Assembly (NCBI GenBank): GCA_036149055.1
Contig: JAYZQJ010000148.1
Coordinates: 1-38,659 of the forward strand
Length of the DNA: 38,659 nucleotides
Direction: 5' to 3'
DNA from: Myxococcota bacterium
GTDB lineage: Bacteria > Myxococcota_A > Polyangia > Polyangiales > Sandaracinaceae
The position numbers were made by a program, and so were the translations under genes. Under the pieces are notes generated by a model. That model had not been told where the DNA came from and did not search any database. It saw only the letters and a list, made by a program, of their open reading frames with translations. Positions within the stretch are counted from its first letter, which is position 1, and the number at the start of each line of letters is the position of its first letter. Below are positions 893-30,620 of the stretch, in pieces.

Positions 893-1702
893 TTACACGA
901 CGCGCCGCGGGATTCCGTCGGCCGACCGAGGCGGGGTGCGGCGCCGGTAGGCCTCGTAGAGGAGCAGGCTCCCGGCGACGGCGACGTTGAGCGAATCGAG
1001 GCCGGGCTCCATCGGGATGCGGACCATGCGGTCGCAGGCCGCCCGCAGCTCCGGGCCGAGCCCGCGCCGCTCCTCCCCGAAGGCGACGGCGCAGCGCCCG
1101 GCGAAGGGCTCGCTCCGGAAGTCCCGGGCCGCCTCCGCGCTCGCGCCGACCACCGTCACGTCCCGCGCCCAGCGCCCGAAGCCGGCGAGGGTCGCGCGAT
1201 GCACCGGGAGCGTGAAGACCGCGCCCATGCTCGCCCTCACCACCCGCGGATCGAAGGGATCGACCGCGTCGCCGAGCAGCACCAGGCCGTCGACGCCGGT
1301 CGCCCGCGCGGTGCGCAGCAAGGTGCCGAGGTTGCCGGGCGAGCGCACCTTCTCGACGACCAGGAAGAGCGAGCCGTCGCGCGGCAGCCGGCGCCAGCGG
1401 GGGCGCACCACCCCGATCAGCCCGTCCGGGGAGGCGCGCGCGCTGAGCGCCGACATCTCGGCCTTCGAGAGGCGCGTGACCGGGGCGTCGAGCCCGCGCA
1501 CGAGCCGTCGCGCGGTGGCGCCGCGGCAGAGCGACGGGCACCACAGGAGGCCCTCGATCCGCAGCCGCGCCTCGAGGGCGCGCCGGACGAAGCCGACGCC
1601 GTCGGCGACCGCGAGGCCGGTGGCGTCGCGAGCGGCCCGGTCGGCGAGGAGCCGCGCGGTGAGCGCGGGCAGGGAGGTGGAGGAGAGAGGCGCCTCCGTC
1701 AT
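893..1702 (-). CDS. TrmH/SpoU-family RNA 2'-O-methyltransferase
   Basis: SPOUT motifs VRSPGNLGTLLRTA, VRASMGAVF, FGEERRGL and IPMEPGLDSLNVAVAGSLLLYE. Confidence 0.92.
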   Translation of the reverse strand: MTEAPLSSTSLPALTARLLADRAARDATGLAVADGVGFVRRALEARLRIEGLLWCPSLCRGATARRLVRGLDAPVTRLSKAEMSALSARASPDGLIGVVRPRWRRLPRDGSLFLVVEKVRSPGNLGTLLRTARATGVDGLVLLGDAVDPFDPRVVRASMGAVFTLPVHRATLAGFGRWARDVTVVGASAEAARDFRSEPFAGRCAVAFGEERRGLGPELRAACDRMVRIPMEPGLDSLNVAVAGSLLLYEAYRRRTPPRSADGIPRRVV

Positions 1703-22717: not shown

Positions 22718-23461
22718 GGTCTCGACCGACAGCAGATCGTCGAGGTCGTCGCGAGGCGCCTCGCCGATCGCGCTCAGCACGAGGCGATAGCGGACGCCGT
22801 CGTGAGCGAAGCGGCTCACCCGCGACCTCAGCCAGCCGTCTCCGGCGAGCGACGCGCTCACCGCGTCGGGCGTGACCGAGTCGACCCGATGGCCGGCGCG
22901 CTCGAGGCGAGCGGCGATCTCGCGGGTGACGTCGGCGCCGGTGTCGTGCGCGAGGTCGAGCGTGAGCTGCGTTCCCTCCCCCTCCCACGCCCAGACCCGA
23001 TGCGCGTCGCGCCAGCGCGCGTCGCCGGCCGCGCGAGTCTCCTCCTCGAGCGAGGGGGATCGCGTCAGGCCTCGCTCCGTGGGGTCCGAGATCGAGAAGC
23101 CGAGGGTGGGGTGCGCCAGTCGGCCGTCCTCGACGCCGAGCGCTCCGGCGGCGGCGCCGCCGAGCGGGACCGGGCCCGCGGCCTGTGAAGACCACACCAC
23201 CAGCGCGATGAAGCCCGCGGCGATCGACGCGGACAGCGCTCCGGTGATCCGAGCCGCGGTCCGCGCGCCTCGCTCACCCAGCAGCGCGGCCGAGAACGCG
23301 AGCGCGCCCGCGATCCAGGCCGCCCACATCGCGCCGCTCACGATCGAGCCGGGCGCCCAGGGGCTCGACGCGGCGACCGCCAGCGAGGTGAGCATCACCG
23401 GCGCGGCGGCGAGCGATCCCCACCCGAGGGCGCGCGCGTAGCGCATGACCCACTCGGGCAC
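22697..23461 (-). CDS. Hypothetical membrane protein
   Basis: 254-aa ORF with three N-terminal hydrophobic helices; convergent with tlyA. Confidence 0.6.
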   Translation of the reverse strand: MPEWVMRYARALGWGSLAAAPVMLTSLAVAASSPWAPGSIVSGAMWAAWIAGALAFSAALLGERGARTAARITGALSASIAAGFIALVVWSSQAAGPVPLGGAAAGALGVEDGRLAHPTLGFSISDPTERGLTRSPSLEEETRAAGDARWRDAHRVWAWEGEGTQLTLDLAHDTGADVTREIAARLERAGHRVDSVTPDAVSASLAGDGWLRSRVSRFAHDGVRYRLVLSAIGEAPRDDLDDLLSVETSDALEE

Positions 23462-23469
23462 GATCAGAG

Positions 23470-23540
23470 CTCCGGCGGCTGGATTCGAACCAACATAGAC
23501 GGATCCAAAGTCCGCAGTCCTACCATTGGACGACGCCGGA
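23470..23540 (-). tRNA. tRNA-Gln(TTG), canonical
   Basis: Acceptor TCCGGCG/CGCCGGA + G73; D arm GTCC-AATGGTA-GGAC; anticodon loop CT-TTG-GA; T loop TTCGAAT. Confidence 0.95.
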
Positions 23541-23587
23541 AACGCTGCGGAGGATAGTACACGCGCCGGTCGCGTCGAGCGGCCTCA

Positions 23588-23659
23588 TGCCTCCCGCCAG
23601 GTTCGAACTGGCTTCTCCCGGTTACGACGCGGGTGCGTTACCGATCACGCTCGAGAGGC
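23588..23659 (-). tRNA. tRNA-Thr(CGT), atypical (last array member, downstream of the Ro60 gene)
   Basis: GCCTCTC/GGGAGGC acceptor; GCGT-GATCGGTA-ACGC; anticodon loop GT-CGT-AA with a C.C mismatch at 31-39; GCCAG-TTCGAAC-CTGGC. Confidence 0.75.
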
Positions 23660-23757
23660 ACGGTCGCCGCGACCGCTCGCCAACGTCGCGAGCGGCCGCG
23701 GGGCCCGGAGCTCCGAGGAGCTCTATTTGGGTGGATGGGTGAGTGGTGGAAGAAGAT

Positions 23758-25302
23758 CTACTGGCCGCGGATGACGTCCACCCAGTGCTGCGCGCCGTCG
23801 GCGCCCTGGGCGAACGCCGCGACCACGTCGAACACCTGGTCGGAGAAGCCCCCGACGTTCAGGATGTCCGGCGAGTCCGGCGCCTGAGAGTGGCCGTACG
23901 GCTGCACGTCCACGCAGACCAGACGCGCCTTCGGGTTCCGGCTCTTCAGCTGGTTCCACTGACGCATGGTCTCCGTGGCGCCGTGACGACGTGCATCGAC
24001 CCACGACTGGTTGTCGCTGACGATCACCACCAGGTCGACCTTCCGCTGCTCCGCGTTCAGCTTCGCGAGCGGGGCCGAGACGTTGGTGCCGCCGCCTCCG
24101 ATGGAGGCGAGCTTCCGCGCGTTGGTCATCACGGTGTCCCGCGGCTCGAGCTCGACCGGCACGCAGCCGTGCTCGAAGGGGATGACCCCCGCCCGCGGGT
24201 TGTGCCGCACGAGCGCCGCCGCGAACAGCGCCGCGACGTCGACGCACTTCACCGCGCTCGTCGCGCCCTGCCGCCAGCCGGTGACCGGCGACTGCATCGA
24301 GCCGGAGACGTCCGGGCAGACGAACACGTGCCCGTCGATCCGCGGCACGTTCGCGATCGCGTGCTCCATCGCGTCGTGCAGCGCGCCCCGCACCTGCGCC
24401 GGGACCTTCGTCGCGCTGACGTAGGCCATCATGAGCTGGTACGGGAAGGCGCGCGCCTTCCGGACGAGCGACGGGTCCGAGAGCCGCGCCGCGATCCGCT
24501 CGGTCATCCCGTCCACCTCGAACACGCCGTGGCGCTGGAAGGTGTTCAGGTTCATCCGCGTCATCTGCCACGACGCGGACTCCGCGATCGCCGCCCACTC
24601 GGCCCGGCCGAGGCCGAGCGCGGTGAGCATCTGGAACGGCACGCTCGGCACCGCGTTGGACCGGTCACGCTTGTAGGCCTCGAAGGCCTTCACGAGCTCC
24701 GGCAGCGCGTCCCCGTCGTGCGCCTTGCCCAGGAGGTACCCGTAGAGCGCCCGCCGCGAGGCGGAGGCCGGCTTCGGGTGGACCATCTTGAGCACGTCGG
24801 CGAGCGACGGAGCGTTCCCGACCGAGCCCTTGAAGAGGTACTCGTCGGACCGCGAGCCGAGCCACCGGAGGATCTCCTTCTTCGGCCGCGTCCCGAGAGA
24901 CTTCCGGCCGACGGCGCCGCTCCGCATGATCTGCACGAAGGTCCGGAGCATCTTCACGTTGTCGACGACCTTCGGGAAGGCCGCCCCGAAGAGCTCGGGA
25001 TCGCGCACGGAGAGCACCGCGAGCAGGAGCGCCGGCATGTCCTTCATGTGCCCACGCTGGCGCGCGTACACCGCGCACTTGGCGAGGAACTCCGGGTCGA
25101 CCGCGAACGCGAGCTTCAGCACGACGTCGAGCTGCGTCTGCGCCGACGCGTAGAAGGTGCCGTTCAGGCAACCGGTGGCCGCGTACTGCCCGAGCGCGTG
25201 CTCCGGACCGAACGCGTAGGCCGGCCCACCCGCCTCGTTGACGAGATCCGGCTTGGGCAGGAGCTTGCCGACGAACGACGCGAACAGGTTCTTGTTTGCC
25301 AT
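23758..25302 (-). CDS. rsr: Ro60/TROVE-domain RNA-binding protein with vWA domain (Rsr)
   Basis: N-terminal NEAGGPAY..L.QYAATGCLNGTFY; MTRMNLNTFQRHG; FPYQLMMAY; MIDAS motif CPDVSGSM, GGGTN, VSDNQSW, VGGFSDQVF. ATG at 25302 follows a GGAGGTG RBS (514 aa). Confidence 0.95.
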   Translation of the reverse strand: MANKNLFASFVGKLLPKPDLVNEAGGPAYAFGPEHALGQYAATGCLNGTFYASAQTQLDVVLKLAFAVDPEFLAKCAVYARQRGHMKDMPALLLAVLSVRDPELFGAAFPKVVDNVKMLRTFVQIMRSGAVGRKSLGTRPKKEILRWLGSRSDEYLFKGSVGNAPSLADVLKMVHPKPASASRRALYGYLLGKAHDGDALPELVKAFEAYKRDRSNAVPSVPFQMLTALGLGRAEWAAIAESASWQMTRMNLNTFQRHGVFEVDGMTERIAARLSDPSLVRKARAFPYQLMMAYVSATKVPAQVRGALHDAMEHAIANVPRIDGHVFVCPDVSGSMQSPVTGWRQGATSAVKCVDVAALFAAALVRHNPRAGVIPFEHGCVPVELEPRDTVMTNARKLASIGGGGTNVSAPLAKLNAEQRKVDLVVIVSDNQSWVDARRHGATETMRQWNQLKSRNPKARLVCVDVQPYGHSQAPDSPDILNVGGFSDQVFDVVAAFAQGADGAQHWVDVIRGQ

Positions 25303-25398
25303 GATGCACCTCCGTGTGGAGTGAAAGGCGCCGCGAGGGCGCGTGATAAGTCGCGTTCGCTGGGCTCCTCCCCGAGAGGAGCCGGGGTGCGAACGCGA

Positions 25399-25469
25399 AG
25401 CGACCGGTCGGAGTCGAACCGACACTGCGGACCTGGCAAGCCCGAGTCCTACCGTTGGACCACGGTCGC
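25399..25469 (-). tRNA. tRNA-Gly(GCC)
   Basis: GCGACCG/CGGTCGC + U73; GTCC-AACGGTA-GGAC; TT-GCC-AG; GTCGG-TTCGACT-CCGAC. Confidence 0.9.
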
Positions 25470-25473
25470 GAGA

Positions 25474-25544
25474 CGCCGCGTACGGAAATCGAATCCGTCT
25501 CACTCGGGAGACAACCGAGCTGCATCCCAGATGCACAACGCGGC
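25474..25544 (-). tRNA. tRNA-Asp(GTC), atypical
   Basis: GCCGCGT/ACGCGGC + G73; TGCA-TCTGGGA-TGCA; CTCGG-TT-GTC-TC-CCGAG; ACGGA-TTCGATT-TCCGT. Confidence 0.85.
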
Positions 25545-25550
25545 AGAAGA

Positions 25551-25583
25551 TGGAGCGCATCGGAGTCGAACCGATCACGCCCT
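25551..25583 (-). ncRNA. tRNA-Ala-like minihelix or tRNA remnant (acceptor + T arm only)
   Basis: AGGGCGT-G-ATCGG-TTCGACT-CCGAT-GCGCTCC-A gives G3.U70 and A73, with no D or anticodon arm. Confidence 0.55.
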
Positions 25584-25590
25584 TCGCTGA

Positions 25591-25661
25591 AGCGATCGAC
25601 GGGAGTTGCACCCGTGTCTCCGGCATGGGAGGCCGGCGTCCTGCTGCTGGACGACGATCGC
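25591..25661 (-). tRNA. tRNA-Gly(CCC), atypical elbow
   Basis: GCGATCG/CGATCGC + U73; GTCC-AGCAGCA-GGAC; CCGGC-CT-CCC-AT-GCCGG; ACGGG-TGCAACT-CCCGT. Confidence 0.82.
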
Positions 25662-25696
25662 GAAGGCGAGCCCCTACGCGAGAGGCATTCGCGGCA

Positions 25697-25781
25697 TGGA
25701 GAGCGGAAGAGTCGAACTCCACACCCCGGAGGGTGCGCACCCGCTAGCAACGGGGCTCGATCCCGGACCGATTCACTCTCC
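25697..25781 (-). tRNA. tRNA-Ser(GCT), long variable arm
   Basis: GGAGAGT/GCTCTCC acceptor; loop TT-GCT-AG; variable stem CACCC/GGGTG; T loop TTCGACT. Confidence 0.8.
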
Positions 25782-25786
25782 TGAAG

Positions 25787-25869
25787 CGGAAGGAGGAGGT
25801 CACGCTCCCCACACCTGTCGGTGCGCACCGTTTTCGAGACGGGCTCGGCCCTCGGCCAATTCTCCTTCC
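25787..25869 (-). tRNA. tRNA-Ser(CGA), atypical T loop
   Basis: GGAAGGA/TCCTTCC + G73; loop CT-CGA-AA; variable arm CACC-GACA-GGTG; T loop AGCGTGA. Confidence 0.75.
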
Positions 25870-25878
25870 GGGAGAAGA

Positions 25879-25997
25879 GCAGCGACGAGTGGTGCGAAGA
25901 CGTGTTCCCGCGGTCCTGCCCTTGGACGACCGCCGAGGCGGGCCGGAGTCGAACCGGCATCTGCGGGGTGAGTTGTAGTCTTCGCGGCATTCGCTGC
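25879..25997 (-). ncRNA. Y RNA (YrlA-like, permuted tRNA-like domain), copy 4
   Basis: Terminal stem GCAGCGA-ATGCC-GCGAAGAC / GTCTTCGC-ACCACTCG-TCGCTGC encloses a T arm (GCCGG-TTCGACT-CCGGC), a loop-closed acceptor (CCGC-CTCG-GCGG) and then a D arm (GTCC-AAGGGCA-GGAC). Confidence 0.85.
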
Positions 25998-26035
25998 GCC
26001 ATTCGTGCGAAACGCGCTCGCTCCCTCGAGAGCGA

Positions 26036-26122
26036 CGGAAGATGGAGGTCACGCTCCCCACCCCTGGAACCAGGGGCGCGCCGGCTTCCAACCGGGCTCG
26101 GCCCTCGGCCGATTCACCTTCC
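26036..26122 (-). tRNA. tRNA-Ser(GGA), atypical T loop
   Basis: GGAAGGT/ATCTTCC + G73; loop TT-GGA-AG; variable stem CCCCTG/CAGGGG; T loop AGCGTGA; clear paralog of the Ser(CGA) gene. Confidence 0.75.
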
Positions 26123-26183
26123 AGCTCGCGCGTGGGGCGAGGGGCGACCCCGAGGCCGACCCCTCACCCGCCACGCGCCGCCC

Positions 26184-26705
26184 TCAGCTCGGGCCGGTCG
26201 TCCACCAGACCCAGTCCTTCCACGGGTCCGGCAGGCTGCGACCGACGCCCAGCTTGGGCAGCCCGGCCGGGAGCGCCTTGGGGCGCACCGGCTGGCTCAG
26301 CAGCTTCATGCCGGCCTGCTCGGGCGTCCGGTTGCCCTTTCGCCCGTTGCAGTCGCGGCACGCGCTGACGATGTTCTCCCAGGACGTGCGGCCCCCCTGA
26401 GAGCGGGGCTTCACGTGGTCGAACGTCAGCTCCCGCGCCGGCAGCTGCTCGCCGCAGTACTGGCAACGGAAGTCGTCGCGGGTGAGCACGTTCACGCGGG
26501 AGAAGCGAACCTTCGGCTCGCGGTGCTTGATCGCGCGGGTCAGCCGAACGACCGCGGGCTTCGGCAGCGCCGTGCTCACCGAGCGGATGAGCTCGTCATA
26601 GGTCTCGACGACCTCCACCTTCCCCGTGAAGGACATCAGGATGGCCTTCTGCCAGCCGACGATCCGGTGTGGCAAGTAGCCTTGGGTCAGGACCAACGTG
26701 TCCAT
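26184..26705 (-). CDS. HNH endonuclease (McrA-like, zinc-binding)
   Basis: FSRVNVLTRDDFRCQYCG..LTFDHVKPRSQGGRTSWENIVSACRDCNGRKG; ATG at 26705 (173 aa). Confidence 0.93.
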   Translation of the reverse strand: MDTLVLTQGYLPHRIVGWQKAILMSFTGKVEVVETYDELIRSVSTALPKPAVVRLTRAIKHREPKVRFSRVNVLTRDDFRCQYCGEQLPARELTFDHVKPRSQGGRTSWENIVSACRDCNGRKGNRTPEQAGMKLLSQPVRPKALPAGLPKLGVGRSLPDPWKDWVWWTTGPS

Positions 26706-26795
26706 GGGAGCACCTTCTTTCGGGGTGATGCGGGCGGAGGGAGGCGCTCGGCGCCGAACGCGACGAGCGGTGACGGAGGGGAGCGAGGGTTCTGC

Positions 26796-26870
26796 GGCGA
26801 ACGGGGAGATTCGAACTCCCACTGAGCGACTTCTGAGGCCGCTGCCTCTGCCGAGTTGGGCTACGTTCGC
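26796..26870 (-). tRNA. tRNA-Leu(CAG) with short variable loop
   Basis: GCGAACG/CGTTCGC acceptor; GCGGC-CT-CAG-AA-GTCGC; 5-nt variable loop TCAGT; GGGAG-TTCGAAT-CTCCC. Confidence 0.85.
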
Positions 26871-27057
26871 GAAACTTTCGTGGCGGGAGGTGGTCGGCTG
26901 CCCGGGGCATCCAGGCGAAGCGGGTGGAGCCTTCGCCCACCGGGCAGCCGACCGACCTTCACGCTCGAGTCCCACCGGACCGTGGCCACCCACCGGTCGC
27001 CCGCGAGGCTCGCGCTCGCGGTCGCCCCTCGTCCGAGGAGCGCGGCGTGGTCGGGGA

Positions 27058-27129
27058 CGCTCTCGCCTGGACTCGAACCAGGAACGCGGGCTTCGGAGGC
27101 CCGAGTGATCTCCGTTTCACTACGAAAGC
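27058..27129 (-). tRNA. tRNA-Arg(CCG)
   Basis: GCTTTCG/CGAGAGC + G73; GTGA-AACGGAGA-TCAC; CGGGC-CT-CCG-AA-GCCCG; CCTGG-TTCGAGT-CCAGG. Confidence 0.9.
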
Positions 27130-27199
27130 ATGTCCCCGTCGTCCGGCGGTGCGTCCAGCGCGGGGGGATGCGCCAGCGGCACGTTCGATCCGACGGAGA

Positions 27200-27271
27200 T
27201 CGGAGAGGGAGGAATCGAACCTCCGTGGTCTGGTTCCCGAAACCAGTGCGTGGCCACTACGCTACACTCCG
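27200..27271 (-). tRNA. tRNA-Pro(CGG)
   Basis: CGGAGTG/CTCTCCG + A73; GCGT-AGTGGCC-ACGC; CTGGT-TT-CGG-GA-ACCAG; GGAGG-TTCGATT-CCTCC. Confidence 0.88.
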
Positions 27272-27511
27272 CTTGCTGGAGGGCCTGAACGCAGGCCCTC
27301 CCCCCATTGGGCAAAGCGCCAATGGGGCCCCCCTCCCGACTCCGTCGGAGCTTCGCGCTTCGCGCTCGCTCCGCGTCCCCAGCGGCGGGGCGCTGGGGCC
27401 CTGCGGCTCGCGCTAGGCGCTTCGCGCCTCGCTGGCCGCCTTTCTGTTGTCGCCGACTTGGTTGTCGTGGGCCGCGCTCGGCGCTTTGCGCTTCGCTGGC
27501 CACCTTTCTGT
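27272..27511. repeat. Palindromic dispersed repeat copy B with an internal 38-bp duplication
   Basis: Inverted homolog of 12-223; 27410-27447 and 27474-27511 match at 34/38 nt. Confidence 0.65.
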
Positions 27512-27538
27512 CGTGGGGGACTCCGGGCCGGGCGGGAG

Positions 27539-27611
27539 CACCCTCGGCAGGAGTCGAACCTGCATCCTCCCGATTCGTAGTCGGGTGCTCATCCATTCGA
27601 GCTTCGAGGGT
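27539..27611 (-). tRNA. tRNA-Arg(ACG)
   Basis: ACCCTCG/CGAGGGT + G73; GCTC-GAATGGAT-GAGC; CCCGA-CT-ACG-AA-TCGGG; GCAGG-TTCGACT-CCTGC. Confidence 0.9.
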
Positions 27612-27615
27612 AGAG

Positions 27616-27684
27616 AGTGCCGAGAGGGAGTCGCGCCCTCGCTCGCCGGGTTGCAGCCAGCGACGCTCGCTCGAGCTTCGGCAC
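27616..27684 (-). tRNA. tRNA-Cys(GCA)-like, reduced D loop
   Basis: GTGCCGA/TCGGCAC + U73 (Cys discriminator); GCTC-GAGC-GAGC; loop CT-GCA-AC; GAGGG-CGCGACT-CCCTC. Confidence 0.7.
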
Positions 27685-27688
27685 GTAG

Positions 27689-27766
27689 TGGTCGACGAGG
27701 GAGCCGTGAGGAGTGCCCGGTCGGGCGTCGATTGACAGTCGATGTACTCACGGCGGCATTCGACCA
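27689..27766 (-). ncRNA. Short Y RNA without tRNA-like domain, copy 3
   Basis: TGGTCGA-ATGCC-GCCGTGAG-TACA...CTCACGGC-TCCCTCG-TCGACCA: same terminal helix motif as the other copies, with two small internal hairpins (78 nt). Confidence 0.72.
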
Positions 27767-27767
27767 G

Positions 27768-27840
27768 TGATCGAGGCGGGAGACGATCCCGCGACCTCCG
27801 GCGTGTCGGGCCGGCGCTCTGCCTGCTGAGCTACTCGATC
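27768..27840 (-). tRNA. tRNA-Val(GAC), atypical
   Basis: GATCGAG/CTCGATC + A73; GCTC-AGCAGGCA-GAGC; CCGGC-CC-GAC-AC-GCCGG (C33); GCGGG-ATCGTCT-CCCGC. Confidence 0.82.
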
Positions 27841-27864
27841 GTGTCTCCAGCGGAGACGAGAGAG

Positions 27865-27972
27865 GCAGCGACGAGGGGTGCGAAGACGCAACGCTTCTCC
27901 GCCCGCAGGATGGACGGAATCGGAGTCGAACCAATGTAAAGCAACCATGTAGTCTTCACGGGCATTCGCTGC
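27865..27972 (-). ncRNA. Y RNA with T arm and closed acceptor stem but no D arm, copy 2
   Basis: GCAGCGA-ATGCCC-GTGAAGAC-TACA..ATTGG-TTCGACT-CCGAT-TCCGTCC(loop)GGGCGGA..GTCTTCGC-ACCCCTCG-TCGCTGC. Confidence 0.8.
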
Positions 27973-27980
27973 GGAGAGGA

Positions 27981-28109
27981 GATGGCGACGAGGGGTGCGA
28001 GGACATTGCTCTAGCCACTGAGCTACGTCCCGATGACTCGAGACGGCCGGATTCGAACCGGCGACCCTTCGTGTTGCAGACGATGTAGTCCTCACGGGCA
28101 TTCGCCATC
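27981..28109 (-). ncRNA. Y RNA (YrlA-like, permuted tRNA-like domain), copy 1
   Basis: GATGGCGA-ATGCCC-GTGAGGAC-TACA..GCCGG-TTCGAAT-CCGGC-CGTCTCGA(GTCA)TCGGGACG-TA-GCTC-AGTGGCTA-GAGC..GTCCTCGC-ACCCCTCG-TCGCCATC. Confidence 0.88.
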
Positions 28110-28111
28110 AG

Positions 28112-28186
28112 GTGGACCGACGGGACTCGCACCCGCTCATGCCTGGGTCACGGCCAGGCGCCTCGACGACTTCGGCTTCGGTCCAC
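28112..28186 (-). tRNA. tRNA-His(GTG), atypical T loop
   Basis: 8-bp acceptor GTGGACCG/CGGTCCAC (G-1:C73 His determinant); CCTGG-CC-GTG-AC-CCAGG; GCGGG-TGCGAGT-CCCGT. Confidence 0.83.
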
Positions 28187-28190
28187 ACAG

Positions 28191-28261
28191 CGCCTCGAGC
28201 TGGACTCGCACCAGCACCTCCCGGATTTCACCCGGGCGCTCGACTGTCGAGCTGTCGAGGC
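28191..28261 (-). tRNA. tRNA-Phe(GAA), atypical
   Basis: GCCTCGA/TCGAGGC; GCTC-GACAGTC-GAGC; CCCGG-GT-GAA-AT-CCGGG; GCTGG-TGCGAGT-CCAGC. Confidence 0.8.
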
Positions 28262-28266
28262 AGGAG

Positions 28267-28339
28267 CGCCGCCGGAAGGATTCGAACCTTCGACCCCCCG
28301 GTTAACAGCCGGGTGCTCTACCGTTGAAGCTACGGCGGC
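28267..28339 (-). tRNA. tRNA-Asn(GTT)
   Basis: GCCGCCG/CGGCGGC + G73; GCTT-CAACGGTA-GAGC; CCCGG-CT-GTT-AA-CCGGG; GAAGG-TTCGAAT-CCTTC. Confidence 0.93.
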
Positions 28340-28384
28340 GTTCGGACCCCGGGGCGCCTGCCACGCGCCCCGGAGGAGACCTGA

Positions 28385-28413
28385 TTTTCAAGGAGCGGCC
28401 CTCGATGGAGGGC
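28385..28413 (-). promoter_or_regulatory. boxB-like hairpin followed by boxA-like antitermination sequence
   Basis: GCCCTC-CATC-GAGGGC hairpin, then GCTCCTTGAAAA, which resembles the rrn boxA consensus (GCTCTTT[A/G]A[C/A]A). Confidence 0.55.
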
Positions 28414-28415
28414 GC

Positions 28416-28486
28416 AGCCGCGCCGAGGAGTCGCACCTCGACCTCCCGGTTCAGAGCCGGACGTCCTGCTGTTGGACCAGCGCGGC
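28416..28486 (-). tRNA. tRNA-Gln(CTG), atypical
   Basis: GCCGCGC/GCGCGGC; GTCC-AACAGCA-GGAC; TCCGG-CT-CTG-AA-CCGGG; CGAGG-TGCGACT-CCTCG. Confidence 0.8.
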
Positions 28487-28490
28487 GTGA

Positions 28491-28562
28491 TGAAGCGCCA
28501 GGGAGTTGCACCCCGATCGACCGGGTAAGAACCGGCTGCTCTGGCTGTTGAGCTAGCGCTCC
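28491..28562 (-). tRNA. tRNA-Lys(CTT), atypical elbow (first array member)
   Basis: GGAGCGC/GCGCTTC + A73; GCTC-AACAGCCA-GAGC; GCCGG-TT-CTT-AC-CCGGT; CGGGG-TGCAACT-CCCTG. Confidence 0.83.
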
Positions 28563-28599
28563 AGAAACGAAAAAAGCCGTCTGCGTGCAGGCAGACGGC
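28563..28599 (-). terminator. Intrinsic terminator (attenuator 2) immediately upstream of the first tRNA
   Basis: GCCGTCTGC-CTGCAC-GCAGACGGC-TTTTTTCGTTTCT; a competing GCAGACGG strand lies at 28635-28628. Confidence 0.85.
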
Positions 28600-28624
28600 C
28601 GGAAGAAGTCGCATTGATTCGACT

Positions 28625-28819
28625 TCACCGTCTGCGATGAATCTCCTGACCGTAGGTATCTGTCTGCGAAGAGATCGGATTGAGATGGGGTTCCGGACAT
28701 CCGCTCGCCAGGCGCAGGTCACCCGTCGAGCGAGCGAACGAGGCCGCCGCGCGTGAGGGGGTCGCCGGACGCCATCGCGGCCTGATGGCCGCCAAGGGCA
28801 TGAGGGGGGTGCGCTGCAT
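28625..28819 (-). CDS. Putative leader peptide 2 (64 aa)
   Basis: Ends CGC AGA CGG TGA exactly on the antiterminator strand; codon-diverse; no visible Shine-Dalgarno. Confidence 0.5.
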   Translation of the reverse strand: MQRTPLMPLAAIRPRWRPATPSRAAASFARSTGDLRLASGCPEPHLNPISSQTDTYGQEIHRRR

Positions 28820-28886
28820 GGGAGGGGAGACGTTCGAGGGGGCGAGAAGTTCCGTCGAGCTGGGATGAAGGGAGGGGAGGGGCGCG

Positions 28887-28926
28887 AGAAACGAAAAAGG
28901 CCGCCTCGGGGAGTCCCGGGGCGGCC
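28887..28926 (-). terminator. Intrinsic terminator (attenuator 1)
   Basis: GGCCGCCCCGGG-ACTC-CCCGAGGCGGCC-TTTTTCGTTTCT; same tail as attenuator 2; a competing GGGGCG strand lies at 28958-28953. Confidence 0.85.
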
Positions 28927-28957
28927 CAAATACGCGAAAAGCGTATGGATCTCGCCC

Positions 28958-29176
28958 CTATGGGATGCGCAGTTCCTGACGAAGGAAGCTCGGGAGCTTC
29001 CCGAACGACGAGCCGCGCTCGTCCGCGCAACGCAGCGGTCCGTGACCGCCGCACTGGCTATCGATCATGTCGATGTCGATGCCGCAGAGACCGAAGGTGG
29101 TCTCCCGGCTCACACCGTACCGGTTCAGCGCTCTGGCTGACCGGTCGCCCTTCGGCGTCTGATGCGTCCACGACAT
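28958..29176 (-). CDS. Putative leader peptide 1 (72 aa, near-leaderless)
   Basis: ATG 9 nt after the -10 box; all 20 amino acids by codon 33; TAG stop overlaps the antiterminator strand. Confidence 0.62.
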   Translation of the reverse strand: MSWTHQTPKGDRSARALNRYGVSRETTFGLCGIDIDMIDSQCGGHGPLRCADERGSSFGKLPSFLRQELRIP

Positions 29177-29185
29177 GATGTGAAG

Positions 29186-29214
29186 GTCTTAACCCAGGTC
29201 CAGACCCGTGTCAA
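29186..29214 (-). promoter_or_regulatory. Putative sigma70-type promoter of the tRNA/Y RNA/Ro60 operon
   Basis: TTGACA (29214-29209)-17 nt-TAAGAC (29191-29186), preceded by a T-rich tract in otherwise very GC-rich DNA. Confidence 0.65.
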
Positions 29215-29253
29215 AGAAAAAGTGATGTCGATGACCAGAAAGTTGGTCGGACA

Positions 29254-30573
29254 TCAATCGCGGTTCTGTCGACGAAGGTGATCCAGGGCTTCGAGGAACA
29301 CTCGCGCTTTGAGCTCGGTCTCCTCGATCTCTCGCTCCGGATCGCTCGCGCTCACGAGGCCGCCGCCCGCGAAGTAGGTCGCGCTCTCTCCGGAGATCAC
29401 GGCGGTTCGGATGGCGACCGCGAGCGAGACACCGCCCGCGCGATCGACGTATCCGAGCGCGCCCGTGTAGACGCCGCGGGCGCACGGCTCCTCGGCCTCG
29501 ATGAGCTCCATCGCGCGCAGCTTCGGCGTGCCGGTGATGCTGCCCGGCGGGAAGGTGGCCTCGAGGATCGCGCGCAGATCGATCTCGGGCCGCGTCCGGC
29601 ACGCGACCGTGCTGACCAGGTGGCTCAGGCCGCGGAACGGCTCCACCCGCAACGGCGCGTGCACACGCACGCTCCCCGTCTCGGCCACGCGCGAGAGATC
29701 GTTGCGCATGAGATCCACGATCATCGCGTGCTCGGCGCGCTCCTTGTCGTCGCGGGTCAGCGTCTCCGCCTCCGCCTCGTCGTCGCGGCCGCTCCGGGCG
29801 ATGGTCCCCTTGATCGGGCTCGTCCAGAGGCTGCGACCCGCGCGGTCCCAGCGGAGGAAGCGCTCCATGGTCCGGCCGAGCACGGCGTGGTCGGGGCGCT
29901 CGAGGTACATGCCGAGCGGCACCGGGCTCGCCTCGCGCATCGCGCGCCAGAGGGCGAGGGGGCCGCCCGCGTAGGGCGCGGTCCACTGGCGCGCGAGGTT
30001 GACCTGGTAGATCTCGCCGGCCGCGATCGCGTCGAGCGCGCGCTCGATGGCGCGGCGGTGGTCGGCGCGGGGCGGCACCGACGCGGCTCCCGCCTTCGCG
30101 CGGCACGCTGGCCGGGCGGAGGCTCGCTCGACCCGCGCTCGCAGCGCCTCCGCGTCGCGGCCGAGCGCCCATCCCCGGCCGGCCTCGCGGTCCACGGCGA
30201 TCAGGCTCTCGTACCGACCGAGGCACACCACCGGCAGCGCGCCGCGGGGATGCCGCGCGGGGGCTCGCAGGCCGAGGCGGCCCGCCTCCGACCACGCGGC
30301 GTCGTACGCGATCCAGCCGATCCACCACGGGACCGCGCCGCGGTCGAGCGGAGCGCCGTCGATCGGCCCGGGCTCGCCCTCGAGCCCGTCGAAGGCGGCC
30401 CAGGGATCGTCGCCGAAGCGCGCGACGCGGGTCTCGACCGGGTCGCTCGCCAGGAACGTCCAGCGGCCCTCGGGGTGACCCGGCTCGCCGTCCAGCCAGA
30501 CCCGTCCACGCGGACCGAGCGCGTGGGCGATGGCGTCGAGCGGCGGGAGGCGCCGGAGGGGCAGGGCGCGCAC
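29254..30573 (-). CDS. Chorismate-binding enzyme, aminodeoxychorismate synthase/anthranilate synthase component I family (PabB-like)
   Basis: GEIYQVNLA, PIKGT, KERAEHAMIVDLMRNDLSRV, TFPPGSITGTPKLRAM, RGVYTGALG, AIRT, AGGGLV. Confidence 0.9.
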   Translation of the reverse strand: MRALPLRRLPPLDAIAHALGPRGRVWLDGEPGHPEGRWTFLASDPVETRVARFGDDPWAAFDGLEGEPGPIDGAPLDRGAVPWWIGWIAYDAAWSEAGRLGLRAPARHPRGALPVVCLGRYESLIAVDREAGRGWALGRDAEALRARVERASARPACRAKAGAASVPPRADHRRAIERALDAIAAGEIYQVNLARQWTAPYAGGPLALWRAMREASPVPLGMYLERPDHAVLGRTMERFLRWDRAGRSLWTSPIKGTIARSGRDDEAEAETLTRDDKERAEHAMIVDLMRNDLSRVAETGSVRVHAPLRVEPFRGLSHLVSTVACRTRPEIDLRAILEATFPPGSITGTPKLRAMELIEAEEPCARGVYTGALGYVDRAGGVSLAVAIRTAVISGESATYFAGGGLVSASDPEREIEETELKARVFLEALDHLRRQNRD

Positions 30574-30620
30574 GCGGCTCCTTTACTCGTGACCTACCTC
30601 GCAGTAAAGGCCCGAGACCC

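What the first reader, a model, noticed from the sequence alone, without database searches (positions are those of the whole stretch)
28887..29176. Leader peptide sampling all 20 amino acids in 33 codons, coupled to a terminator/antiterminator
Seen: MSWTHQTPKGDRSARALNRYGVSRETTFGLCGI contains every amino acid by residue 33. The whole ORF uses all four Gly codons, four Arg codons (CGG, AGA, CGT, CGC), three Ser and three Leu codons, including codons rare in this GC-rich DNA. The ATG sits 9 nt from the -10 box. The stop TAG overlaps GGGGCG (28958-28953), which can pair with CGCCCC (28923-28918) in the terminator 5' arm around an inner TACGC-TTTTC-GCGTA hairpin. Established: amino-acid attenuators use runs of one codon type to sense one charged tRNA. 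Inference: this is the opposite design, a pan-codon sensor. A ribosome reaching the stop masks the antiterminator and transcription terminates, whereas loss of any tRNA or any ribosome stall would allow readthrough into the tRNA array.
Basis: partly seen in the sequence, partly recalled or inferred. Interest (0 to 1): 0.92.

Follow-up and report, generated by a model that had tools for sequence, protein, structure and literature searches.

The report
Two-ORF attenuator leader before tRNA operon
The small reading frame is real and conserved as a frame, and it seems to be the first of two translated leader frames, each tied to a terminator switch in front of a tRNA and RNA-repair gene cluster; its use of all 20 amino acids looks like an accident.

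Summary
All features are on the minus strand. The "pan-codon" reading is not supported. All 20 amino acids within 33 residues occurs only in this lineage. Relatives reach 20 at residue 77-81 or never, and three have frames of only 27-31 codons. The frames' own base composition explains the diversity.

The attenuator idea survives and grows. In 10 Sandaracinaceae species (6 genera) the same ~620-nt leader follows pabB:
- a TTGACA-17-TAnnAC promoter;
- a start codon 8-10 nt after the -10 box;
- an open frame (ORF1) of 27-117 codons, poorly conserved as a peptide;
- a stop 29-36 nt before a near-invariant terminator hairpin (T1).

In nascent-RNA folds the stop-flanking bases pair with the terminator's 5' arm in 10/10 species, above shuffles. 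A second frame (ORF2) ends at an invariant TGA that abuts a second antiterminator/terminator switch (T2). T2 touches tRNA-Lys.

The operon holds about 15 tRNAs, YrlA-like RNAs, an HNH endonuclease and Rsr/Ro60.

Best reading (about 0.5): tandem attenuators that sense translation capacity. Translation and regulation themselves are untested.

The parts
29215..29224 (-). T-rich tract (CACTTTTTCT) directly upstream of the -35 box
   Evidence: Conserved as C(A/G)(C/T)TTTT(T/C)(C/T/G)(T/G)T before TTGACA in 11 of 11 sequences. The pattern of a T-rich tract plus TTTGACA occurs once in the 9.9-Mb genome.
29186..29214 (-). Promoter-like site TTGACA-17 nt-TAAGAC
   Evidence: TTGACA is invariant. The -10 box is TAnnAC-like in 8 of the 10 species (TACATC in G022, TATGAA in G008). 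The tool's sigma-70 scan does not call it because it requires T at the last -10 position. Contigs from RNA libraries begin at 29127-29169, just inside the ORF.
28958..29176 (-). ORF1: 72 codons plus TAG, starting 9 nt after the -10 box (leaderless or nearly so)
   Evidence: The frame is kept open up to 29-36 nt before the hairpin in 10 of 10 species (per-species shuffle P 0.023-0.16). GC3 is the highest codon position in 10 of 10. dN/dS is 0.30 in the G018/L041 pair, but the two closest pairs together show 6 nonsynonymous and 1 synonymous change. No Pfam hit. The 5.8-billion-protein search found one cluster, at 97% identity. AF2 pLDDT is 42.
28948..28965 (-). 5' strand of the putative antiterminator of T1; it contains the TAG and GGGGCG
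   Evidence: In the nascent-RNA MFE it pairs with 13 of 13 bases of the terminator's 5' arm, at positions -5..+12 from the stop. Shuffle P is 0.01 and 0.007. The same geometry holds in 10 of 10 species.
28930..28946 (-). Small inner hairpin ATACGC-TTTTC-GCGTAT
   Evidence: A hairpin of different sequence is predicted at this place in 10 of the 11 sequences folded, 9 of 10 species (not G018). The two G018/L041 differences in it read as pair-preserving (A-U to G-U, G-U to A-U; read by eye).
28889..28927 (-). Terminator T1: hairpin GGGCCGCCCCGGG-ACTC-CCCGAGGCGGCC plus TTTTTCGTTT
   Evidence: RNAalifold keeps it, and 7 of 11 predicted pairs are identical in 11 of 11 sequences. The hairpin with a T-run is unique in the genome. 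At least 4 T directly follow the stem in 7 of 10 species, 3 T in G014 and none in G005 and G018.
28802..28881 (-). C-rich, G-poor stretch of the spacer (C 45/80, G 10/80 on the transcribed strand)
   Evidence: This skew is reached by 3.4e-5 of all 80-nt windows of the genome, in 50 regions. The spacer is C>G in all 11 sequences (C/G 1.16-2.11).
28625..28819 (-). ORF2: 64 codons plus TGA, with no Shine-Dalgarno-like bases before the ATG
   Evidence: The first ATG after T1 is in frame with the invariant TGA in 11 of 11 sequences. That frame is open in 10 of 11, against 4 of 11 for each other frame. The gaps in the window/G001 alignment are 6, 15 and 6 nt. There is no clear GC3 periodicity. dN/dS is 0.68.
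28591..28635 (-). Antiterminator of T2: strand 1 GCAGACGG (28635-28628), inner hairpin P2 (28626-28605), strand 2 CCGTCTGC (28598-28591). The ORF2 stop TGA (28627-28625) follows strand 1 directly.
   Evidence: This is the MFE of the nascent RNA in 12 of 12 sequences. 94.8% of cells are paired, with no compensatory change. The TGA is invariant in 12 of 12.
28564..28600 (-). Terminator T2: GGCCGTCTGC-CTGCAC-GCAGACGGCT plus TTTTTTCGTTTC, ending 1 nt before tRNA-Lys
   Evidence: Called by the terminator scan. 99.1% of cells are paired and 2 pairs show compensatory changes. It is the MFE of the full RNA. The covariance model finds one copy per carrier genome.
23469..28563 (-). Downstream operon. 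14 tRNAs by ARAGORN plus one more at 28112-28185. YrlA-like RNAs at 27979-28108, 27862-27972 and 25876-25997. HNH endonuclease 26187-26795. Rsr/Ro60 23761-25395. Ends with tRNA-Thr and tRNA-Gln(ttg).

Best explanation
The 72-codon frame (ORF1) is a genuine leader reading frame, leaderless or nearly so. It is the first part of a conserved ~620-nt leader that a strong promoter drives into an operon of tRNAs, YrlA-like RNAs, an HNH endonuclease and Rsr/Ro60.

The leader holds two modules of the same design.

Module 1: the ORF1 stop codon lies inside the 5' strand of a helix. In the nascent RNA this helix ties up the 5' arm of intrinsic terminator T1, around a small inner hairpin.

Module 2: a second frame (ORF2) ends at an invariant TGA directly after strand 1 of a three-strand switch. 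Strand 1 pairing with strand 2 forms an antiterminator around hairpin P2. Strand 2 pairing with strand 3, followed by a U-tract, forms terminator T2. T2 ends 1 nt before tRNA-Lys.

Inferred logic: a ribosome that reaches each stop codon in step with RNA polymerase covers the antiterminator's 5' strand, so the terminator forms and transcription stops. If translation lags for any reason (few ribosomes, uncharged or damaged tRNAs, inhibitors), the antiterminators form first and polymerase reads into the tRNA/Y-RNA/Rsr genes.

The leader therefore senses general translation capacity rather than one amino acid, and it needs no particular codon content. The 20-amino-acids-in-33-codons feature is a lineage-specific accident.

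Shown in silico: the conserved anatomy, the retained ORFs, the alternative folds, and cover by contigs from RNA libraries. Inferred only: translation of either ORF, the sign of regulation, and that T1 and T2 terminate in vivo.
For: Conserved anatomy in 10 species of 6 Sandaracinaceae genera plus 3 metagenome contigs.

ORF1: the start codon is 8-10 nt after the -10 box in 10/10 species; G014's is the second in-frame ATG. The stop is 29-36 nt before T1 in 10/10. Frame-retention P is 0.023-0.16 per species, and GC3 is the highest position in 10/10.

T1 antiterminator: the nascent-RNA MFE pairs 5-13 of 13 arm bases with positions -8..+12 around the stop in 10/10 species. Shuffle P is 0.00-0.18 by MFE and 0.007-0.205 by partition function, with Fisher over 6 genera 2.4e-6.

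ORF2: the first ATG after T1 is in frame with the invariant TGA in 11/11 sequences. The frame is open in 10/11, against 4/11 and 4/11 for the other frames. Indels between the window and G001 are 6, 15 and 6 nt.

T2 switch: the antiterminator is the nascent MFE in 12/12 sequences, and the terminator is the MFE of the full RNA. The terminator helix is 99.1% paired with 2 compensatory pairs. No room is left for a promoter between T2 and tRNA-Lys.

Both terminators carry the tail TTTTTCGTTTC, which occurs only 3 times in 9.9 Mb; the third follows the gene upstream of dnaB, read by eye as rplI.

Contigs from RNA libraries cover ORF1 in 4 runs of 3 studies. In 2 runs of one study a single contig spans ORF1, T1, the spacer and T2: 28570-29127 and 28552-29161.

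The cargo fits a translation or RNA-damage response: Rsr/Ro60 and HNH, YrlA-like RNAs.
Against: Nothing shows translation of either ORF. Contigs cannot show RNA ends, strand or a single transcript.

ORF1 shows coding-type periodicity, and dN/dS is 0.30 in one pair. That also fits an ordinary small protein, and a stop codon about 30 nt before a terminator is common for ordinary genes (recalled).

In a raw duplex test, the stop window pairs with the terminator arm no better than 11-92% of other 15-nt windows of the ORF.

RNAalifold recovers only the big hairpin.

The T2 antiterminator has no compensatory change, and 5 cells are unpaired in G022, G008 and G002.

T1 lacks a U-tract in G005 and G018.

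ORF2 has no Shine-Dalgarno-like bases and no clear GC3 periodicity. In G014 its frame stops 18 nt early.

The invariant TGA could instead be conserved as part of P2.

The C-rich spacer could be a Rho loading site, which would give the opposite sign of regulation.

Only 6 genera of one family carry the leader, so the sample is small and related.
Confidence: 0.5

Rival explanations
1. ORF1 is an ordinary, fast-evolving small protein gene with its own promoter and its own terminator (T1). Its product acts in trans or has an unknown role. The complementarity between the stop flank and the terminator arm is incidental. The tRNA operon is expressed by leaky readthrough, or from an unrecognised promoter in the spacer, and only T2 (if anything) is regulatory.
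For: GC3 > GC1 > GC2 in 8 of 10 species, and GC3 is highest in 10/10. dN/dS is 0.30 for G018/L041. N-terminal M-x-W-T/V-x-Q/H and C-terminal hF(G/A)G motifs are weakly conserved. Gene callers predicted the ORF in other assemblies (one cluster with 6 members). The raw duplex test is not exceptional. In 2 runs of 2 studies the contig covers only ORF1 (28954-29167 and 28956-29169). A TCAATC-like block about 45 nt before strand 1 is conserved and could belong to a promoter (read).
Against: The peptide is not alignable even within the genus, while the flanks are 69-84% identical. The two closest pairs show 6 nonsynonymous and 1 synonymous change. Length ranges from 27 to 117 codons. There is no fold (pLDDT 42), no family and no relatives beyond 97% identity. 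Rare codons make up 10-21%, against 4.1% in proxy genes. The stop-flank/arm pairing exceeds shuffles. No sigma-70-like site was found in 23000-30000.
Confidence: 0.25
2. One reading: ORF1 is built as a pan-codon sensor. It samples all 20 amino acids and many synonymous and rare codons, so that loss of any one charged tRNA stalls the ribosome and opens the antiterminator.
For: All 20 amino acids by residue 33 is rare (71 of 2,191,789 proteome windows; 157 of 200,000 own-composition shuffles). 4 of 5 long homologues first examined hold all 20, against 2-6% of equally long windows of real proteins. Rare codons are enriched, 10-21% against 4.1%.
Against: G001 lacks W and Y. The others reach 20 only at residues 77-81. 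The g8 ORFs are 27-31 codons long. Codon-position shuffles of each long ORF give all 20 in 10-41% of cases, and distinct codons are not above the shuffles (P 0.11-0.84). So the diversity follows from base composition (GC1/2/3 about .65/.57/.82 against .74/.51/.95 in proxy genes). About 1.7 such windows per 38.6 kb are expected at the proteome rate.
Confidence: 0.05
3. The leader acts as RNA only, or through Rho. Neither ORF is translated, or ORF2 translation merely shields a C-rich Rho loading site. The hairpins serve processing, stability or protein binding. On the Rho version, loss of translation would then shut the operon off, not switch it on.
For: The spacer is among the about 50 most C>G-skewed regions of the genome, and it is C>G in 11/11 sequences. 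The T1 hairpin is almost invariant in sequence, more than a terminator needs. ORF2 lacks a Shine-Dalgarno-like site and clear periodicity.
Against: Both ORFs are retained in frame far beyond shuffles. The start codon sits at a fixed distance from the -10 box. No Rfam family matches, even at E up to 10. Rho action was not testable here.
Confidence: 0.12

Closest known systems
Leader-peptide (ribosome-mediated) transcription attenuators of amino-acid operons: trpL, hisL, pheL, leuL, thrL, ilvL (recalled; pheL abstract seen in the listing, PMC3082878; S. meliloti trpL abstract in the listing, 10.1101/606483)
   Same: A leader ORF whose stop lies at or within a strand of an antiterminator. Mutually exclusive antiterminator and terminator hairpins. 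An intrinsic terminator before the structural genes. A ribosome that reaches the stop favours termination.
   Different: No run of codons for one amino acid. The ORFs are long and variable (27-117 and 13-87 codons) rather than 14-30. ORF1 is leaderless. Two modules stand in tandem. The controlled genes are tRNAs, Y-like RNAs, HNH and Rsr, not biosynthetic enzymes.
Leader ORFs that sense ribosome inhibition in general or by antibiotics: ermC, cat, bmrB-bmrCD, vmlR, msrD, toiL-topAI (recalled; msrD and yxjB/tylosin abstracts seen in the listing, PMC10314930 and PMC6851288)
   Same: Slowing of a ribosome on a leader ORF opens an antiterminator. The signal is the state of translation, not a metabolite.
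   Different: Those leaders use specific short arrest peptides and control resistance genes. Here no arrest motif was identified, the peptides are unconserved, and the target is the tRNA supply itself.
Anabaena sp. PCC 7120 L-array (trn operon), a cryptic tRNA operon induced by translational stress (PMC8421152; abstract and passages read)
   Same: An accessory, horizontally spread tRNA gene array whose expression responds to impaired translation. It is co-regulated with RNA-repair functions (rtcB there, Rsr/YrlA-like here).
   Different: [quoted passage not shown] The words leader, attenuat- and terminator do not occur in that paper's main text.
Rsr (Ro60)-YrlA modules, e.g. the Salmonella rsr-yrlBA-rtcBA operon (PMC4201824, passages read; PMC7790460, abstract in the listing)
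   Same: A TROVE/vWA Ro60 orthologue encoded beside tRNA-like Y RNAs, linked to tRNA damage.
   Different: The Salmonella operon is switched on by the RtcR activator, per the abstract. Here the module sits inside a tRNA operon behind a two-ORF leader. The YrlA matches are below Rfam's gathering score.
pyrBI and pyrE attenuators of E. coli (recalled, no paper read)
   Same: They sense how closely the ribosome follows RNA polymerase, not one codon type. In pyrE the sensing frame is a long upstream ORF.
   Different: There a close ribosome prevents the terminator hairpin (opposite sign), and the signal is UTP-dependent pausing.

Membership tests
Leader-peptide transcription attenuator | A translated short ORF in the leader | tested here: inconclusive
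   ORF1 and ORF2 are retained as frames beyond shuffles. Translation itself cannot be shown with these tools.
Leader-peptide transcription attenuator | An intrinsic terminator between the leader ORF and the controlled genes | tested here: met
   T1 at 28927-28889 and T2 at 28600-28564: GC hairpins with U-tracts. The T1 U-tract is degenerate in G005 and G018.
Leader-peptide transcription attenuator | An antiterminator that competes for the terminator's 5' arm | tested here: met
   It is the nascent-RNA MFE in 10/10 species for T1 and 12/12 sequences for T2, and is above shuffles for T1. No compensatory changes were seen. The raw duplex test for T1 is not exceptional.
Leader-peptide transcription attenuator | The ribosome's position on the ORF decides the fold (the stop codon or regulatory codons overlap a strand) | tested here: met
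   This is geometry only. The ORF1 stop lies inside the 5' strand (-8..+12) in 10/10 species. The ORF2 TGA follows strand 1 directly in 9/10 species and lies 18 nt earlier in G014. The size of the ribosome footprint is recalled.
Leader-peptide transcription attenuator | A run of codons for the sensed amino acid | tested here: not met
   No codon run is present, and composition is explained by base content. So this is not a classic amino-acid attenuator.
T-box or other described riboswitch/leader RNA | A match to an Rfam model | tested here: not met
   No non-tRNA family at gathering score. The best weak match in 28480-29260 is RcsR1, 25.4 bits against a cut-off of 60.
tRNA array unit (at least 20 tRNA genes at 2 or more per kb; definition from the abstract of PMC4758250, listing) | At least 20 tRNA genes at a density of 2 or more per kb | tested here: not met
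   14 tRNAs by ARAGORN plus 1 by Rfam in 5.1 kb, about 2.9 per kb. The density is met; the number is not.
Rsr/Ro60-Y RNA module | A TROVE-domain Ro60 orthologue with a YrlA-type RNA nearby | tested here: inconclusive
   vWA_Ro60 at 9e-20 and TROVE at 7e-07, both above their cut-offs. The YrlA matches score 57.6, 52.6 and 29.4 bits, all below the gathering score of 69.

The most novel reading that the evidence does not exclude
A tandem pair of leader ORFs works as a codon-agnostic 'translation health' gauge. Whenever ribosomes fall behind RNA polymerase for any reason (tRNA cleavage by toxins, starvation, ribosome inhibitors), both antiterminators form and the cell switches on a back-up set of tRNAs together with Y-RNA/Rsr RNA quality control. 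This would be the first ribosome-mediated attenuator known to control tRNA genes. It would be an independent solution to the problem that the Anabaena L-array solves with a promoter repressor.
Probability: 0.3. Interest if true: 0.85.

Novelty: new variant of a known kind. Interest (0 to 1): 0.68.

Why it matters
tRNA genes are usually treated as being under promoter control only (growth rate, stringent response). A leader in which translation itself gates tRNA transcription would be a direct feedback loop from decoding capacity to tRNA supply.

It would also link accessory tRNA arrays to Rsr/Y-RNA quality control in one stress-induced operon. That would give a testable explanation of how such 'cryptic' arrays are kept silent and then switched on.

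The design needs no conserved peptide. It is a reminder that leader ORFs can go unnoticed when one looks for codon runs or conserved peptides.

Searches of the held library found no paper combining 'tRNA array' with 'leader peptide' or 'tRNA gene cluster' with 'Myxococc'. The two papers combining tRNA operon, attenuation, leader peptide and terminator are on other subjects. Subscription journals are not covered.

Tried and rejected
1. Protein homology of ORF1. No match below E 0.007 in 60 relatives, no Pfam hit, one 97%-identical cluster among 5.8 billion proteins, and a single-sequence AF2 model with pLDDT 42. No family could be assigned.

2. Amino-acid diversity as a designed feature. Rejected after codon-position shuffles and after seeing the short g8 ORFs.

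3. Raw duplex test of the stop window against the terminator arm. It was not exceptional. Both results are reported.

4. RNAalifold on the region from the stop to the T-run. Only the big hairpin was recovered, because the small hairpin and the stop flank are out of register in the alignment.

5. Widening the sample. The BLAST search, the pattern scans of genome and metagenome contigs and the covariance model on 151 genomes of the order found no carriers beyond the 10 species and 5 metagenome contigs. Two of those contigs lack the upstream part.

6. RNA-library contigs. pabB (29218-30576) has no cover in X1, X5 and X9 and little in X3. X5 and X9 contigs (two studies) stop at 28954 and 28956, at the ORF1 stop and not at the T1 U-tract. 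No DNA run was laid, so this is at most a faint hint and remains unexplained. Contig breaks at 28570-28575 coincide with a T-run length variant (table 4), so they say nothing about RNA ends.

7. A promoter in the spacer. The scan found none. A conserved TCAATC block was seen by eye only.

8. The search of earlier findings returned nothing.

9. Supplementary files of the papers cited were not opened.
Full report
CHECK OF THE OBSERVATION.
- The ORF at 29176..28958 encodes the 72-residue peptide quoted.
- Residue 33 completes the set of 20 amino acids.
- The Gly, Arg, Ser and Leu codon sets are as listed.
- TTGACA-17-TAAGAC ends 9 nt before the ATG.
- The TAG overlaps GGGGCG (28958-28953), which is complementary to CGCCCC (28923-28918) in the 5' arm of a GC-rich hairpin followed by TTTTTCGTTT.
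- ATACGC-TTTTC-GCGTAT lies in between.

IS ALL 20 IN 33 RESIDUES MORE THAN CHANCE? It is rare:
- 71 of 2,191,789 windows in 4,996 proxy genes of this genome, and 1 of 4,996 N-termini;
- 157 of 200,000 codon-position shuffles of the ORF itself;
- 3 of 53,364 stop-free six-frame windows of the 38.6-kb window, all three being this ORF.

At the proteome rate, however, about 1.7 such windows are expected in a window this size. And the feature does not recur in relatives.

WHAT THE SURROUNDINGS ARE. Upstream lies a chorismate-binding enzyme gene (pabB-like, Pfam 5e-79). Downstream lie 14 tRNA genes and a 15th at 28112-28185.

The tRNA block also holds:
- a Ro60/Rsr orthologue (vWA_Ro60 9e-20, TROVE 7e-07; 23761-25395);
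- an HNH endonuclease (26187-26795);
- three YrlA-like matches below Rfam's cut-off (57.6, 52.6 and 29.4 bits against 69).

Record titles place the relatives in the Sandaracinaceae. The genome has 78 tRNA calls. The block holds the only detected copies of tRNA-Asn(GTT), tRNA-Arg(ACG) and tRNA-Gln(TTG), in an assembly that is 96% complete.

COMPARATIVE ANATOMY. Of 29 family loci that hold the pabB orthologue:
- 10 species of 6 genera carry the leader (G000, G001, G005, G010, G018, G017, G022, G008, G014, G002);
- 12 have tRNA-Gln(ttg) within about 70-215 nt of pabB; one of these, G023, is an unpublished genome and contributes only that one row;
- 6 have no tRNA within 1.5 kb;
- 1 is cut by a contig end.

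tRNA-Gln(ttg) is the last gene of the window's block. So the leader plus block is a presence/absence unit between pabB and that tRNA.

Three metagenome contigs are close variants of the window, of G001 and of G018.

All carriers share this order: T-rich tract, TTGACA, 17 nt, a -10 box (TAnnAC-like in most), start codon 8-10 nt later, an open frame, the stop, a small hairpin, a nearly invariant GGCCGCC...GGCGGCC hairpin, a C-rich spacer, a three-strand element, and then the first tRNA. In genus g8 the tRNAs are mostly gone and the HNH gene follows.

IS ORF1 REAL? The peptide is not conserved:
- no protein match in 60 relatives;
- the DNA search skips the ORF body even within the genus, while the flanks match at 84% and 69%;
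- only one 97%-identical cluster in a 5.8-billion-protein search;
- length varies from 27 to 117 codons.

Yet the frame is kept open to within 29-36 nt of the hairpin in 10/10 species (per-species shuffle P 0.023-0.16). GC3 is the highest codon position in 10/10.

Selection on the peptide is weak and uneven. dN/dS is 0.30 for G018/L041. The window/L044 and G001/L043 pairs together show 6 nonsynonymous and 1 synonymous change.

Rare codons make up 10-21% of the ORFs, against 4.1% in proxy genes. That proxy set was chosen for high GC3, so the contrast is overstated.

A single-sequence AF2 model has pLDDT 42.

THE PAN-CODON IDEA. G001 lacks Trp and Tyr. G005, G018 and G010 reach 20 kinds at residues 77, 80 and 81. 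The g8 ORFs have 27-31 codons.

Against real proteins, 4 of the 5 long ORFs first examined holding all 20 kinds looked striking, since only 2-6% of equal-length protein windows do. But shuffling each ORF's bases within codon positions gives all 20 in 10-41% of cases. Distinct-codon counts are not above the shuffles (P 0.11-0.84).

The diversity is therefore a by-product of a less GC-biased composition, and is not a maintained design.

THE ANTITERMINATOR AT T1. A raw duplex test did not single out the stop window: 11-92% of other 15-nt ORF windows pair with the arm as well. RNAalifold kept only the big hairpin.

Folding the nascent RNA, cut before the 3' arm, gave a different answer. It pairs the 5' arm with positions -8..+12 around the stop, around the small hairpin, in 10/10 species. 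This holds even where the sequence at the stop differs (TAGGGGCG, TAGGGTG, GGGTGA, TAGCGG, AGGTAGG, TAACCCAG).

Shuffling the 24 nt around the stop lowers this pairing:
- MFE test: P 0.00-0.18;
- partition-function test: 5.3-12.5 expected paired arm bases against shuffle means of 0.4-6.9, P 0.007-0.205, Fisher over one species per genus 2.4e-6.

The related species are not fully independent.

A SECOND MODULE. Directly before tRNA-Lys lies a conserved element of about 76 nt. It matched at 76-90% identity in five other species of four genera by BLAST. More diverged copies in G014, G002, G022 and G008 were found through synteny.

GCAGACGG occurs twice (28635-28628 and 28584-28577), flanking CCGTCTGC (28598-28591). 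A covarying hairpin, P2, lies between the first copy and the middle strand. TTTTTTCGTTTC follows the second copy and ends 1 nt before the tRNA.
- The terminator helix is 99.1% paired, with two compensatory pairs.
- The alternative helix is 94.8% paired without compensatory support.
- The nascent RNA folds into the antiterminator in 12/12 sequences, and the full RNA into the terminator.
- A covariance model finds one copy per carrier and none in the other genomes among the 151 searched.

The TGA directly after strand 1 is invariant. The first ATG after T1 is in frame with it in 11/11 sequences. That frame is open in 10/11, against 4/11 for each other frame. In G014 it stops 18 nt earlier. The window/G001 alignment has gaps of 6, 15 and 6 nt.

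This ORF2 (28819..28625 in the window) has no Shine-Dalgarno-like bases and no clear periodicity. Its dN/dS is 0.68.

OTHER FEATURES OF THE LEADER. The spacer is C-rich and G-poor on the transcribed strand in all 11 sequences (C/G 1.16-2.11). The window's best 80 nt (28802-28881, C 45, G 10) lies in the top 3.4e-5 of the genome.

The tail TTTTTCGTTTC occurs three times in 9.9 Mb: after T1, after T2, and after the gene upstream of dnaB, which I read by eye as rplI.

RNA EVIDENCE. Contigs of four RNA libraries from three studies cover ORF1. In two runs of one study a single contig spans ORF1, T1, the spacer and T2. Contigs cannot show ends, strand, level or a single transcript.

HOW IT MOST LIKELY WORKS (inference). 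Each module places a stop codon in or next to the 5' strand of an antiterminator. A terminating ribosome covers roughly 15 nt on either side of its A site (recalled). It would keep that strand single, the terminator would form, and transcription would stop.

If ribosomes lag or fail to start, the antiterminators form first and polymerase runs on into the tRNA, YrlA-like, HNH and Rsr genes.

The signal is how well translation keeps up with transcription, so the peptide sequences are free to drift, as observed.

Two modules in series would sharpen the response, as tandem T-box leaders and riboswitches do (recalled).

Open points: the sign of regulation, any role of Rho at the C-rich spacer, and whether the ORF1 peptide also acts in trans.

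COMPARISON WITH WHAT IS KNOWN. The logic is that of leader-peptide attenuators, but the codon run that defines them is absent. It resembles the leaders that sense ribosome inhibition in front of resistance genes. The biological parallel is the Anabaena tRNA L-array, which is induced by translational stress through promoter repeats (PMC8421152, passages read). Another parallel is the Rsr/YrlA operons tied to tRNA damage (PMC4201824, passages read; PMC7790460, abstract only).

My library searches found no description of a leader-ORF attenuator before tRNA genes. Subscription journals are not covered.

VERDICT. The pan-codon design is not supported. A translation-coupled attenuator is supported by comparison, and it is doubled. 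It is a new variant of a known kind and is worth experimental testing. Confidence in the mechanism is about 0.5.

Noticed in passing
window 23761-25395 (-): A Ro60/Rsr orthologue (vWA_Ro60 9e-20, TROVE 7e-07) lies inside the tRNA block, between tRNA-Gly(gcc) and tRNA-Thr(cgt).
   Followed up: partly
window 27979-28108, 27862-27972, 25876-25997 (-): Three YrlA (Y RNA-like) matches below Rfam's gathering score (52.6, 29.4 and 57.6 bits against 69). They explain the tRNA-like T-arm repeats that ARAGORN did not call.
   Followed up: partly
window 26187-26795 (-); also L035 about 900-1095 (-) in G017: An HNH endonuclease gene sits inside the block (HNH_5 4e-17). In genus g8 a similar ORF follows the leader where the tRNAs are missing.
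   Followed up: partly
window 28112-28185 and 25697-25782 (-): A further tRNA (38.9 bits, above the cut-off) that was missed by ARAGORN and by the first Rfam pass, and a tRNA-Sec-like match below the cut-off (31 bits against 47).
   Followed up: no
window 23469-29254; loci L045-L073: The leader plus block (about 5.7 kb) lies between pabB and tRNA-Gln(ttg). In 12 of 29 family loci pabB is followed directly by that tRNA, and presence differs within genus g4 (G014 has the block, G004 does not). It looks like an accessory insertion or a repeatedly lost block. One of the 12 rows is the unpublished G023.
   Followed up: partly
window 27255-27405: This bin has the highest contig depth of the laid stretch in RNA libraries (264 in X1, 34 in X3, 18.6 in X5), with several loose ends at 27271-27414. 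It lies beside 50-nt and 19-nt direct repeats at 27345-27522. Possibly an abundant small RNA or a repeat shared with other organisms.
   Followed up: no
window 28569: A length variant of the T-run of terminator T2 (one extra base in part of run X1). It coincides with the contig breaks there.
   Followed up: no
window 28954-28956: Contigs of two RNA libraries from two studies (X5, X9) both end here, at the ORF1 stop codon and about 60 nt before the T1 U-tract. Unexplained; no DNA run was laid for comparison.
   Followed up: no
L047 (G005), just after the T1 hairpin: G005 has three tandem copies of a unit of about 19 nt (GGCCTCGCGTCGTTGTGG-like) where the T1 U-tract lies in other species.
   Followed up: no
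window 28640-28700 and the homologous places: Two small conserved islands lie inside the spacer: ACGTC 10-15 nt before the ORF2 ATG, and a TCAATC-like block about 45 nt before strand 1. The second encodes x-N-Q/P/H in ORF2. Their function is unknown, and a promoter there is not excluded (read).
   Followed up: no
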